Shown: positions 1 to 1,782 of the stretch, piece by piece
How positions within the stretch are numbered: position 1 is the first letter of the stretch
Layout of the letters: every line of letters begins with the position of its first letter
Assembly (NCBI GenBank): GCA_000004985.1
Contig: GG739327.1
Source: Naegleria gruberi
Lineage: Eukaryota
DNA length: 1,782 bases
Strand: one strand, 5' to 3'
The notes under the pieces: generated by a model
The model's database searches: none
Seen by the model: the letters and a program-made list of their open reading frames with translations, nothing else
Told to the model about the DNA's origin: nothing
Position numbers and translations under genes: made by a program

Positions 1-27
1 TATTGATGATGAACACATTTTTTTTAG

Positions 28-69
28 ATCGTCGGTTGGTTGAAAAATCCTCCAAAAACTGGAAGCAAG
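28..69 (+). CDS. putative 42-nt internal micro-exon, spliced in frame to the 375..634 exon
   Basis: It is flanked by an acceptor (T8 run 18-25 then AG at 26-27) and a donor (AAG|GTAACT, GT at 70-71). In the reading phase with codons starting at 30, it encodes RRLVEKSSKNWKQ with no stop. That leaves 1 nt (G69), which joins A375 and T376 to make GAT (Asp). The splice therefore continues exactly into the open frame-2 ORF of the downstream exon. This phase match has about a 1-in-3 chance of occurring randomly. Confidence 0.22.
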
Positions 70-374
70 GTAACTTGTAATTTTTTACAAATCTGTTGAA
101 AAAGAGGTACCAACTTTTGGAACAACAACAAAACTTGGCAGTTGAAATTTTATTGTTTTTTTATTTTTTGTTTTTTTAATTTTTTTGCCCCTAACTTTCA
201 CCACTTCTCTAAAGTTGAACCTATTTTTCATCATTCGGGCGGTCATCTTGCAGCGGTTTTTGCAAATGAAATCATTCTATTTTATTTATTATTTTTTAAT
301 TTTTTAATTTTTATTTTAATAATTTGGCGAAGACCCCTCTCCCCCTGCGTGCTGTAATTTATCCTTCTTCCCAG
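70..374 (+). other. putative 305-nt intron (GT...AG) separating the two proposed exons; very T-rich low-complexity interior
   Basis: Donor GTAACT at 70-75 and acceptor cttcttcccAG ending at 374. The interior is dominated by poly-T and TTTTTTAA-like units, which is typical of nematode introns. Translating it in frame 1 gives the Phe-rich artefact ORF 142..357. Confidence 0.22.
142..330 (+). repeat. T-rich low-complexity / simple-sequence tract (poly-T runs and TTTTTTAA-like tandem units)
   Basis: Directly visible: tttattgtttttttattttttgtttttttaatttttttgcccc (about 150-190) and ttattttttaattttttaatttttattttaataattt (about 287-323). These are interrupted only by a short GC-richer island at 232-262. 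Confidence 0.6.
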
Positions 375-634
375 ATCAAGAGAAAGAAATTCCTAAAGAA
401 AAAGAAGAAAAAGAAGAAAAATTGTCATTTATCGGAAACATTCGTGAAATTATCTCTGAATTGATAGAGGAAATCTTTTCTTCAGCCCTGCGTTTTGCAA
501 TTTTACTAATTTTGAAACTTCTCCTCATTTATTATATTGTTGTGAATTATGGAAAGGATTTATTGAAATTTGCTTGGCATGCTGTAATGTCATCTGATGC
601 AGAAGATCTTGAGAAAAGACTCAAAAATAAATAA
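375..634 (+). CDS. putative terminal coding exon of an upstream + strand gene; encodes a Lys/Glu-rich segment followed by a C-terminal tail-anchor-like TM helix and a short tail; stop TAA at 632-634
   Basis: Frame 2 is open from 323 to the TAA at 632-634. The track ORF 422..634 is the same frame, with TTG miscalled as M. A polypyrimidine tract plus CAG (tccttcttcccag, AG at 373-374) gives a credible 3' splice acceptor, putting the exon start at 375. Translation: (D)QEKEIPKEKEEKEEKLSFIGNIREIISELIEEIFSSALRFAILLILKLLLIYYIVVNYGKDLLKFAWHAVMSSDAEDLEKRLKNK*. The hydrophobic stretch AILLILKLLLIYYIVV lies ~30 residues from the C-terminus. AATAAA overlaps the stop. Confidence 0.4.
626..631 (+). other. 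canonical polyadenylation signal AATAAA overlapping the TAA stop of the 375..634 exon
   Basis: The sequence caaaaATAAATAAtcc contains AATAAA at 626-631, and the stop TAA sits at 632-634. This fits the 3' end of a transcript ending shortly downstream, roughly 645-660. Confidence 0.35.
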
Positions 635-665
635 TCCAGATTATTCGAAACTATTAGTTTACTTC

Positions 666-679
666 CAATTAGCAATTAG
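666..679 (+). repeat. perfect tandem direct repeat CAATTAG x2 (AATTA/TAAT homeodomain-type cores) in the intergenic region
   Basis: acttcCAATTAGCAATTAGaagt: the two 7-mers at 666-672 and 673-679 are flanked by the inverted pentamers ACTTC and GAAGT. Confidence 0.5.
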
Positions 680-1055
680 AAGTTCTGTAAAGTTGACTTT
701 TGAGCATAAACCTGGTTGAACATGAAGTTCTGGTTTAACTAGTATTTTTCTTCACCATTGCCATTTGACTTGACAGTTTCAGCAAAAGTAAAATTTCTAA
801 TAGTCCAAGAAGATACCAGCTTTTCATTAGCCAAGAATCCAAGAACTCGGTTAGGAATTTTTGATTGAACTTATCTTCCATCTGGCCATCCATAGCTCAA
901 AAAGTTTCATGATCCAATCTAATTGCCTTGTTTGTTAACTGTTTCTAAAACCATCACAACATCTCAACACACCATCTGTGAGTCACTGACATTGCATCAA
1001 AATCACCAGTCTCACATTAAAATTCAAAACAAAAAAGAAAACACACACAACCATC

Positions 1056-1061
1056 TTTCAG
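1056..1061 (+). other. consensus nematode 3' splice acceptor TTTCAG 22 nt upstream of the ATG; candidate trans-splice (SL) acceptor or end of a 5'-UTR intron
   Basis: atcTTTCAG|ttattaccattataaatacaacATG. In Caenorhabditis, SL1 trans-splicing uses a UUUCAG acceptor a few to a few tens of nt upstream of the initiator ATG. No in-frame ATG lies between the upstream stop at 1018-1020 and 1084. Confidence 0.35.
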
Positions 1062-1071
1062 TTATTACCAT

Positions 1072-1078
1072 TATAAAT
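1072..1078 (+). promoter_or_regulatory. TATA-box-like TATAAAT motif, 6 nt upstream of the ATG at 1084
   Basis: The sequence is ccatTATAAATacaacATG. It is too close to act as the core promoter for initiation at ATG 1084 if transcription starts ~30 nt downstream. Either it is an incidental AT-rich word or the true initiator is a downstream ATG, for example ATG 1144. Confidence 0.15.
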
Positions 1079-1083
1079 ACAAC

Positions 1084-1782
1084 ATGTCTTTTGGATTTTA
1101 CAAAATATTGGGAAGTTCCTGTTTGATTGGAGGATTTATTGGAATGACACTCTTTTTAATTAGTACTATCGTTACTTTTGTCTGTATTAATATTGATTAT
1201 TACTATGTAAATGATCCTGAGGCTGTGAAATTCAAGATGGTCAACTGTTGTCAAATTACATCGTTACAAAATTGTGAGACGAGCAGCAGGGGAACAACAT
1301 TTTGCAGAACTACTGTAAAATATCCATCCAATTTACAAAATCTGATCGAAATAGTTCAAAAATCCAATTCTGCTTATTACAAACTCACAACAGATTCTCA
1401 AAAATATGAAAAGAGAGAAGAAATTAATGCACCTTTTTATTTTAATCCAAATAATGTTAGTTTATATGAATATTACTCTGAGGATTATCCTAGAAATTTG
1501 TGGTTGGATTTTAATTGTAGAGCTATGGTTGAATATGTTGTAAATGGAACAAATTCAGAGTTGACCAATTCTTTCACAAGCTCAAATTATCCAAATTTAG
1601 CATCGTTTAATAGCTCACTTTCTCTAACAATGATAGAGAAAGTACTCAGATCGCAGGTAAGCGACAAGGTTCAAGTTTCGAAACAAGAACAAGTAGGAGA
1701 CTATATGAATTGTTATACGAATTCGAATGGAGAAACTCTCTTTTCTAACAGATATAGCTATTTATACAAGAATTTACTTGGA
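1084..1782 (+). CDS. 5'-complete, 3'-truncated ORF (233 codons, runs off window end) encoding a predicted single-pass membrane protein with an N-terminal signal anchor and a Cys-containing, N-glycosylation-site-rich ectodomain; family not recognised
   Basis: I translated frame 1 by hand. TAA at 1018-1020 is the nearest upstream in-frame stop, and ATG at 1084 is the first start codon after it. No stop occurs from 1084 to 1782 (MSFGFYKILGSSCLIGGFIGMTLFLISTIVTFVCINIDYYYVNDPEAVKFKMVNCCQITSLQNCETSSRGTTFCRTTVKYPSNLQ...NGTNSELTNSFTSSNYPNLASFNSSLSL...KNLLG). With about two-thirds A+T, a 233-codon open frame is very unlikely by chance. Residues ~8-36 are uniformly hydrophobic, consistent with a signal anchor or TM helix. 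Downstream there are 8+ Cys and at least four N-x-S/T sequons (NVS, NGT, NSS twice). Codon composition is non-repetitive and looks protein-like. The supplied track omits it, presumably because it has no in-window stop. Confidence 0.6.
   Translation, partial: MSFGFYKILGSSCLIGGFIGMTLFLISTIVTFVCINIDYYYVNDPEAVKFKMVNCCQITSLQNCETSSRGTTFCRTTVKYPSNLQNLIEIVQKSNSAYYKLTTDSQKYEKREEINAPFYFNPNNVSLYEYYSEDYPRNLWLDFNCRAMVEYVVNGTNSELTNSFTSSNYPNLASFNSSLSLTMIEKVLRSQVSDKVQVSKQEQVGDYMNCYTNSNGETLFSNRYSYLYKNLLG

What the first reader, a model, noticed from the sequence alone, without database searches (positions are those of the whole stretch)
1084..1782. Predicted signal-anchor membrane glycoprotein with Cys-rich ectodomain, family not recognised
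The encoded N-terminus has about 7 hydrophilic residues, then a ~28-residue hydrophobic segment (ILGSSCLIGGFIGMTLFLISTIVTFVCINI). That is too long for a typical cleaved signal peptide and fits a type II signal anchor. The rest is hydrophilic with clustered cysteines (CC, C-x8-C, FC, NC, NCY) and several N-x-S/T sequons. Tyr, Asn and Ser are abundant. I cannot place it in a known domain family from memory. It may be a lineage-specific nematode secreted or membrane protein family.
Basis: inference. Interest (0 to 1): 0.55.

Follow-up and report, generated by a model that had tools for sequence, protein, structure and literature searches.

The report
Orphan two-pass Naegleria membrane glycoprotein
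The window holds most of an already catalogued but unstudied gene of the amoeba Naegleria gruberi (not a nematode), which encodes a small membrane protein with a hydrophobic helix at each end and a six-cysteine middle domain; it has no recognisable family and only one known distant relative.

Summary
Window 1084-1782 (+) is an open frame of 233 codons. It has a 7-residue head, a 28-30-residue hydrophobic segment, six later cysteines, three N-x-S/T sequons and a Tyr/Asn/Ser-rich composition.

The interpretation needs three corrections.
1. The source is Naegleria gruberi. The window is the 1782-bp scaffold that carries GenBank EFC35354.1 ('predicted protein, partial'). It is a 98%-identical allele of the 263-aa NAEGRDRAFT_73776.
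2. The full protein has a second, stronger hydrophobic helix at residues 233-259, just past the window end. It is therefore not a simple type II signal-anchor protein. It is most likely a two-pass hairpin with tails of 7 and 4 residues and a ~195-residue exoplasmic domain.
3. It is not an expanded paralogue family. An exhaustive search of 1.84 billion representative proteins found one real relative. That relative is a gene on a metagenome contig from a distant heterolobosean. It is 40% identical and has the same layout, all six ectodomain Cys and one conserved sequon (NGT).

Pfam, PDB sequences, viral contigs and prokaryote contigs gave nothing. AlphaFold models were unusable (pLDDT 43). Function is inferred only: a non-catalytic surface or accessory-subunit protein. 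This is an ordinary lineage-restricted orphan of low to modest interest.

The parts
1084..1782 (+). Coding sequence, codons 1-233 of a 263-codon gene. It is an allele of N. gruberi NAEGRDRAFT_73776 and runs off the window end.
   Evidence: Open frame. 98% identical over 100% of its length to P0001. Residues 1-191 are identical to P0005 = EFC35354.1, which lies on a 1782-bp contig. Conserved against L002 far above the intergenic level.
1084..1104 (+). Short N-terminal tail (MSFGFYK, codons 1-7), inferred to be cytosolic.
   Evidence: The orientation is inferred; flanking charges are uninformative.
1105..1194 (+). Hydrophobic helix 1 (codons 8-37), inferred to be an uncleaved membrane anchor.
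   Evidence: A 28-residue run without charged or strongly polar residues, with negative summed insertion energy. The relative has an equally long run of 34 residues and is 37% identical here. G10, G17, F24 and T31 are conserved at heptad spacing.
1195..1782 (+). Hydrophilic central domain (codons 38-233 of 38-232; the window ends at G233), inferred to be exoplasmic and disulfide-bonded.
   Evidence: Six Cys, all conserved in the relative. Three sequons. No hydrophobic stretch; the minimum summed insertion energy is above +11.
1246..1305 (+). Cysteine cluster C55-C56-x7-C64-x9-C74.
   Evidence: all four Cys are invariant, as is Q57.
1432..1551 (+). Best conserved block (codons 117-156: PFYxNPxN ... 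DYPRNLW-DF-CR ... YVVNGT). It includes C145 and the only conserved sequon, N154-G-T (1543-1551).
   Evidence: 24 of 40 identical in residues 121-160, against 38% for the whole domain.
1657..1662 (+). Donor-like GTAAGC where the GenBank partial model stops. It is most likely not used, and the frame reads through.
   Evidence: P0005 has 191 aa and ends at 1656. P0001 and P0006 read through. Window 1657-1782 has no difference from L002 and holds residues conserved in the relative, including C210.
1018..1083 (+). In-frame stop (1018-1020) and the leader before the start codon. The context AATACAaCATG resembles that of the relative (AATACAcCATG).

Best explanation
This is a real, single-copy protein-coding gene of Naegleria gruberi. 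The window is a small allelic scaffold of locus NAEGRDRAFT_73776.

Proposed architecture of the 263-residue product:
- Helix 1 (residues 8-37) acts as an uncleaved signal anchor that starts translocation.
- The ~195-residue middle domain enters the ER lumen. There its six conserved cysteines form up to three disulfides and at least N154 is glycosylated.
- Helix 2 (residues 233-259) stops transfer.
- Only 7 N-terminal and 4 C-terminal residues remain in the cytosol. C260 sits next to the membrane and is a possible palmitoylation site.

Proposed function: with almost no cytosolic part and no catalytic motif, the protein most likely works through its outer domain and its two helices. It could be a non-catalytic surface protein or an accessory (beta-type) subunit of a larger membrane complex.

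Status of each step:
- Shown: the gene, its identity, the two hydrophobic helices, the conserved Cys and sequon, and the restricted distribution.
- Inferred: the orientation, the disulfides, the glycosylation and the function.
For: - Identity and source.
- Coding constraint: 8 of 699 coding differences against 87.6% identity in the intergenic stretch; pN/pS 0.25.
- Second helix: residues 231-260 carry no charged or polar residues. Kyte-Doolittle means reach 2.85, and summed insertion energy is about -4.
- Helix 1 is 28-34 residues long in both species. That is beyond the 7-15-residue hydrophobic core of typical cleaved signal peptides (established knowledge).
- Both helices are as conserved as the middle domain, or more so: 37% and 48% against 38%. 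Small residues recur on one face. This fits retained, packing helices better than discarded targeting signals.
- All six Cys of the middle domain and the NGT sequon are conserved at 40% overall identity.
- Aromatic residues flank the middle domain at both membrane edges (DYYY after helix 1, RYSYLY before helix 2). This fits both helix ends lying on the same side.
- There are no paralogues and no known-family match, so nothing points to an enzyme.
Against: - No topology, signal-peptide or GPI predictor could be run.
- Flanking charges do not settle the orientation. K229 and R223 lie on the supposed outer side of helix 2.
- Only two independent sequences exist, so the conservation arguments are thin.
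- The sole distant relative is frame-disrupted in its middle on the metagenome contig.
- AlphaFold gave no usable fold (pLDDT 43).
- Nothing bears directly on function, and no expression evidence was available.
Confidence: 0.5

Rival explanations
1. It is a secreted-pathway surface glycoprotein whose N-terminal segment is a cleaved signal peptide. Its C-terminal hydrophobic segment is then either a type I anchor or a GPI-attachment signal (candidate omega site around G233/G235 in NLLGWGAAS). The mature product would be a ~195-residue surface glycoprotein held by one anchor.
For: The layout of an N-terminal and a C-terminal hydrophobic segment with a very short tail (CNNR) is the classic look of GPI precursors. 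Small residues G-W-G-A-A-S precede the last hydrophobic run, and the relative has S-W-G-G-A-S. I-V-T|F at residues 29-32 would satisfy the -3/-1 rule (read from the sequence).
Against: The first hydrophobic run is 28-34 residues in both species, and hydrophobic residues continue past any candidate cleavage site. Both hydrophobic segments are conserved as well as or better than the mature part. The C-terminal Cys next to the membrane is conserved (C260; CC in the relative). The spacer between the candidate omega site and the hydrophobic run is very short.
Confidence: 0.22
2. The topology is inverted. Both tails are exoplasmic and the central domain is cytosolic, tethered at both ends. The C55/C56/C64/C74 cluster would then bind a metal instead of forming disulfides.
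For: The positive-inside rule is not satisfied clearly either way. R223 and K229 flank helix 2 on the central-domain side. CC-x7-C-x9-C could be a metal site.
Against: The central domain has an even number of Cys, all conserved, including two isolated ones far apart (C145, C210). It has a conserved NGT sequon. Its Asn/Ser/Thr/Tyr-rich, low-charge composition is typical of exoplasmic domains. Acidic residues follow helix 1 (D38, D44, D46).
Confidence: 0.1
3. It is a single-pass type II signal-anchor protein. The C-terminal hydrophobic stretch would not span the membrane.
For: Within the window only one hydrophobic segment is visible.
Against: The full-length allele and the L002 copy carry a 27-30-residue C-terminal segment that is more hydrophobic than the first. 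It is conserved in the relative.
Confidence: 0.05
4. It is not a functional gene, but a chance open frame or a decaying pseudogene on a junk scaffold.
For: The scaffold is tiny and its first 371 bases do not match the L002 copy. The only distant relative has frame disruptions. No expression data were found.
Against: Three N. gruberi-type copies keep the frame intact. The coding part is much better conserved than its flanks. Identity is 40% with motif and Cys conservation across a divergence at which a neighbouring enzyme is 49% identical. The frame-broken part of the relative is the best conserved protein block, which points to recent damage or assembly error.
Confidence: 0.04

Closest known systems
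N. gruberi NAEGRDRAFT_73776 (EFC38523.1 / XP_002671267.1 / UniProt D2VXK0), 'predicted protein', 263 aa
   Same: Same gene. 98% identical over all 233 window codons, with four substitutions (T22A, E46D, T76A, S105T). The window's own GenBank model is EFC35354.1.
   Different: The window copy is truncated at codon 233 by the scaffold end. Its GenBank model is cut further, to 191 aa, at a donor-like GTAAGC.
Unnamed gene on metagenome contig ERZ27315067 k141_63002 (L001 2344-3211; pieces P0007 and P0008)
   Same: 40% identity along the whole length. Same helix-domain-helix layout, six conserved Cys, the NGT sequon, and the motifs TV(K/R)YPxNL, PFYxNPxN, DYPRNLW and WGxASI.
   Different: It comes from a distant heterolobosean; its neighbouring peptidase S15 is only 49% identical to that of N. 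gruberi. There is no shared synteny. Its middle is frame-disrupted, and it has an extra CC before C210.
Two-pass accessory subunits with a disulfide-bonded, glycosylated outer loop (BK-channel beta subunits KCNMB1-4; CDC50/LEM3 subunits of P4-ATPases)
   Same: Works-like resemblance only. Both termini are short and cytosolic, there are two helices, and the outer loop carries conserved disulfides and N-glycans with no catalytic domain. BK beta architecture is from PMC5854672 (listed); the rest is from general knowledge.
   Different: No sequence similarity: no Pfam hit at E up to 10. Loop length and Cys pattern differ. No partner protein is known.
Na,K-ATPase beta subunit and other type II glycoproteins
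   Same: A short cytosolic head, a long N-terminal anchor and an ectodomain with six Cys and a few N-glycans (general knowledge).
   Different: Those proteins have one helix. This one has a second, C-terminal helix. There is no sequence match.

Membership tests
Allele or orthologue of N. gruberi NAEGRDRAFT_73776 | Near-identity over the full length of the fragment | tested here: met
   98% identity at 100% coverage, E 6.7e-148. In the same 90% cluster as EFC35354.1, which lies on a 1782-bp contig.
Type II signal-anchor membrane protein | A single uncleaved N-terminal helix and no other membrane segment | tested here: not met
   There is a second hydrophobic helix at residues 233-259 of the full-length allele.
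Cleaved N-terminal signal peptide | A hydrophobic core of about 7-15 residues followed by a polar c-region with small residues at -3 and -1 | tested here: inconclusive
   The hydrophobic run is 28 residues (34 in the relative) with no polar c-region. This argues against cleavage, but SignalP could not be run.
GPI-anchored protein | An omega site with small residues at omega and omega+2, a polar spacer of 5-10 residues, and a hydrophobic C-terminus | tested here: inconclusive
   A hydrophobic C-terminus is present. Candidate G233/G235 has a very short spacer. The segment and the terminal Cys are conserved. No GPI predictor was available.
Pfam Caenor_Her-1 (PF09232) | A score at or above the gathering cut-off of 20 bits | tested here: not met
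   15.4 bits, E 0.021 for the window copy. The hit is absent for the full allele, the ectodomain alone and the relative.
Pfam CYYR1 (PF10873) | A score at or above the gathering cut-off of 31 bits | tested here: not met
   15.3 bits. The match covers only the C-terminal helix region of P0001.
BK-channel beta subunit (CaKB) / CDC50-LEM3 | A sequence match to the family profile | tested here: not met
   Neither family is listed by hmmscan against Pfam-A at E up to 10.
BK-channel beta subunit (CaKB) / CDC50-LEM3 | Association with a pore-forming or ATPase partner | not testable with these tools
   This needs co-purification.
Tetraspanin | Four transmembrane helices and a CCG motif in the large loop | tested here: not met
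   Two helices only, with a firm start codon. The motif is CCQ. There is no Pfam hit.
   Exhaustive phmmer over 1.84 billion representatives gave, below E 0.001, only the protein itself, two pieces of one foreign gene and one spurious repeat protein.

The most novel reading that the evidence does not exclude
The protein founds a heterolobosean-specific family whose ~195-residue disulfide-bonded outer domain has a fold not yet seen. It would act as the two-helix accessory subunit of a membrane transporter or channel in Naegleria, analogous to BK beta or CDC50 but of independent origin.
Probability: 0.12. Interest if true: 0.4.

Novelty: new variant of a known kind. Interest (0 to 1): 0.2.

Why it matters
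The consequences are mostly practical.
- The finding is re-assigned to the correct organism.
- It shows that a window-edge truncation hid half of the membrane architecture.
- It corrects a GenBank partial gene model that stops at a false splice donor.

Biologically, this is one of the many lineage-restricted membrane proteins of Naegleria. If its outer domain had a new fold, or if it proved to be an accessory subunit, it would interest people working on heterolobosean cell surfaces. That includes the surfaces of relatives of the pathogen N. fowleri. Nothing here suggests a wider principle.

Tried and rejected
- Pfam scans of the window product, the full allele, the ectodomain alone and the relative. 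Only sub-threshold hits appeared, and they differed from one query to the next: Her-1, DarT, CYYR1, AsnC_trans_reg2, APP1_cat. They are treated as chance.
- PDB sequence searches with the single protein and with the profile: no hit at E up to 10.
- Word-indexed homologue searches with the protein and with the alignment: only the protein itself.
- The exhaustive representative search added P0003, a 601-aa tandem-repeat protein matched in 7 stretches at 20% identity. It is rejected as compositional.
- AlphaFold2 on the single sequence and on the 5-row alignment: pLDDT 43.4 and 42.9, with only the two helices modelled. A Foldseek search of the PDB with that model gave best E 0.47 and TM below 0.15, which is meaningless.
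- Two metagenome-contig scans, one viral scan and one prokaryote-genome scan found no relatives. A giant-virus or bacterial origin therefore has no support.
- Synteny between the N. gruberi-type locus and the relative's contig: none.
- Literature: no paper or supplement in the held library names the locus tag or its accessions. The known N. gruberi ependymin-related protein is a different gene, EFC42264.
- Rfam and tRNA scans of the window: nothing. The tandem-repeat scan found only low-complexity T/AT-rich tracts and the AAGAAAAAG repeat at 396-421. The bacterial promoter/terminator scan is not relevant to a eukaryote.

Full report
**What is in the window**

Bases 1084-1782 on the + strand translate without a stop for 233 codons, and the frame runs off the window end. 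In DNA of this composition (31% G+C) the chance of 233 open codons is about 1e-8.

ATG 1084 is the first in-frame ATG after a TAA at 1018-1020. A possible acceptor at 1057-1062 (TTTCAG) would be followed by an in-frame TAA at 1075-1077. The protein therefore cannot be extended upstream.

- A head of 7 residues.
- A run of 28 residues (8-35) with no charged or strongly polar residue.
- Cys at 55, 56, 64, 74, 145 and 210 after that run.
- Three sequons: N124-V-S, N154-G-T and N176-S-S.
- S, N and Y at 11.6, 10.3 and 8.6%.

'Cys-rich' is an overstatement, since six Cys in about 195 residues is 3.1%.

**Where it comes from**

The only close database match is a 263-aa 'predicted protein' of Naegleria gruberi. 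It is 98% identical over the whole fragment.

The cluster look-up identifies it as EFC38523.1 / XP_002671267.1 / NAEGRDRAFT_73776, on a 275-kb scaffold. The same cluster holds EFC35354.1, 'predicted protein, partial', 191 aa, on a contig of exactly 1782 bases. That protein is identical to the first 191 codons of the window frame. The window is thus a whole small scaffold of the N. gruberi assembly, not nematode DNA.

It differs from the main-scaffold copy at four residues. Naegleria is described as a mainly heterozygous diploid (PMC9928731). The scaffold is therefore most simply an unmerged second allele.

A third copy (P0006) lies on an ENA metagenome contig, L002, with the gene at 927-1718.

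**Evidence that it is a real gene, and the correct 3' end**

- Window 372-1782 aligns to L002 181-1625 at 94.5% identity.
- Within the coding part only 8 of 699 bases differ: 4 synonymous and 4 not, giving pN/pS about 0.25.
- The intergenic stretch 635-1083 is 87.6% identical, with 43 gap columns.

The GenBank partial model stops at 1656, just before GTAAGC at 1657. The annotators evidently read this as a splice donor. Three observations argue for read-through.
- The main-scaffold model and L002 both read through.
- Window 1657-1782 shows no difference from L002.
- The stretch holds residues conserved in the distant relative, including C210.

**What the window hides**

The full protein continues for 30 more residues: WGAASIVFSVLFFFAFLTGIIIIAVMCNNR. 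This segment is more hydrophobic than the first. Kyte-Doolittle means reach 2.85, against 2.4 for the first segment in the full-length allele. Summed insertion energy is about -4 against about -2, using the Hessa scale as I recall it. No other part of the protein comes near membrane-like hydrophobicity.

The protein thus has a hydrophobic helix at each end and a hydrophilic domain of about 195 residues between them. It is not a single N-terminal anchor.

**Relatives**

HMMER read every one of 1.84 billion representative proteins and found four hits below E 0.001.
- The protein itself.
- Two short proteins, P0002 and P0004.
- A 601-aa tandem-repeat protein, matched in seven stretches at 20% identity, which I discard as compositional.

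P0002 and P0004 lie on the same contigs as each other. Their longer versions, P0007 and P0008, are adjacent calls on ENA contig L001, at 2344-2790 and 2909-3211. They are two pieces of one gene.

Joined, they align with the Naegleria protein over its whole length at 40% identity. With the middle restored, the following are all conserved.
- All six Cys of the central domain.
- The N154-G-T sequon.
- The blocks D-x-YY, CCQ, TV(K/R)YPxNL, KRxExNxPFYxNPxN, DYPRNLW-DF-CR, YVVNGT, C(Y/F)TN, RYS and WGxASI.
- Both terminal helices.

The other two sequons are not conserved.

The contig's neighbouring peptidase S15 has N. gruberi peptidase S15 as its best named match, at 49% identity. The organism is therefore a distant heterolobosean relative. 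The membrane protein has diverged about as much as an ordinary enzyme. There is no shared gene order.

No paralogue in N. gruberi was found. No relative turned up in viral or prokaryotic contigs or in two metagenome scans.

I cannot say whether N. fowleri lacks the gene, because I could not confirm that its proteome is in the libraries.

**A caveat on the relative**

In L001 the middle of the gene is out of frame. The homologous peptides YDFDCRSFID and YVVNGTSTNLTSNMT sit in different frames. A 67-nt stretch bounded by a 15-nt direct repeat (TTCCAACATGACACA at 2847 and 2914) interrupts the gene. Alternatively, a canonical GT...AG interval of 115 nt (2785-2899) would splice in frame and skip this part.

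The disrupted part is the best conserved block of the protein: 24 of 40 identical in residues 121-160. I therefore think assembly error or very recent damage is more likely than an old pseudogene. I could not decide between them.

**Known families**

Pfam gave only sub-threshold hits, and they change from one family member to the next: Her-1 at 15.4 bits, DarT, CYYR1, AsnC_trans_reg2 and APP1_cat. I treat them as chance.

PDB sequences gave nothing with the single protein or the profile.

AlphaFold2 produced models with pLDDT 43.4 (single sequence) and 42.9 (5-row alignment). Only the two terminal helices were modelled with any confidence. A Foldseek search with such a model returned noise, with best E 0.47.

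The protein itself is already catalogued as uncharacterised.

**Most likely mechanism**

I favour a two-pass hairpin.
- Helix 1 acts as an uncleaved signal anchor.
- The middle domain is translocated, disulfide-bonded (six conserved Cys, up to three bonds) and glycosylated at least at N154.
- Helix 2 stops transfer.
- Only MSFGFYK and CNNR are left in the cytosol.

Arguments for this:
- The first hydrophobic run is 28 residues here and 34 in the relative. This is well beyond the usual core of cleaved signal peptides.
- Both helices are conserved as well as or better than the middle domain: 37% and 48% against 38%.
- G10, G17, F24 and T31 are conserved at heptad spacing, as expected for a packing face.
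- Tyr-rich belts (DYYY, RYSYLY) flank the middle domain at both membrane edges.
- A Cys at the cytosolic end of helix 2 is conserved. It is a typical palmitoylation position.

These are inferences from two independent sequences. Flanking charges do not fix the orientation.

With almost nothing in the cytosol and no catalytic signature, the protein most plausibly acts through its outer domain and its helices. It could be a surface protein or an accessory subunit. In layout it resembles BK-channel beta subunits (PMC5854672, listed) or CDC50. It fails the sequence test for both.

**Rivals**

- Main rival: a cleaved signal peptide plus a GPI signal or type I anchor. The overall shape of the precursor fits. 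The length and conservation of the hydrophobic segments argue against it. It needs SignalP/NetGPI or biochemistry to settle.
- Inverted topology with a cytosolic, metal-binding middle domain: less likely, given the conserved sequon, the isolated conserved Cys and the composition.
- Non-gene or pseudogene: contradicted by the coding-specific conservation.

**Verdict**

This is an ordinary, lineage-restricted orphan membrane glycoprotein of Naegleria. It is already deposited but unstudied. Its architecture was half hidden by the window edge. Interest is low to modest.

Noticed in passing
window 375-634 (+), and 1-374: Bases 375-634 encode the last 86 residues of a small upstream gene (stop TAA at 632-634). 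The product has a KE-rich stretch and then one hydrophobic helix, ALRFAILLILKLLLIYYIVV. On L002 the same gene is an intron-less 146-aa ORF (12-452) with no Pfam match. Window 1-371 is unrelated to L002 1-180, and similarity begins exactly at CAG|ATCAAGAG. In the window a polypyrimidine tract plus CAG precedes base 375, and an open frame ending AAG|GTAAC at 69/70 joins in frame. This is either an allele-specific 5' structure with a 305-nt intron (70-374) or a chimeric mini-scaffold.
   Followed up: partly
window 1657-1662: The deposited partial gene model (EFC35354.1, 191 aa) ends at a donor-like GTAAGC. Conservation shows that the frame reads through, so the deposited model is truncated by 42 codons within the scaffold.
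   Followed up: yes
L001 2785-2929: The only distant homologue is frame-disrupted in its best conserved block. A 67-nt stretch bounded by a 15-nt direct repeat (TTCCAACATGACACA at 2847 and 2914) interrupts it. A canonical GT...AG interval (2785-2899, 115 nt) would splice in frame. Assembly error, recent pseudogenisation and intron gain over former coding sequence were not distinguished.
   Followed up: partly
window 396-421: The in-frame repeat AAGAAAAAG (2.9 copies) in the upstream gene's KE-rich stretch is one unit shorter than in L002 (EEKEEK against EEKEEKEEK). This is a length polymorphism between copies.
   Followed up: no
L002 2082-2951: Downstream of the gene in the N. gruberi-type contig lies the start of a multi-pass membrane protein (290 aa, running off the contig). 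Its N-terminus carries several sequons, and it has no significant Pfam match. It has no counterpart on the distant relative's contig.
   Followed up: partly
window 146-186 and 280-325: Long T-rich and AT-rich low-complexity tracts lie in the putative intron or non-homologous 5' part of the scaffold.
   Followed up: no
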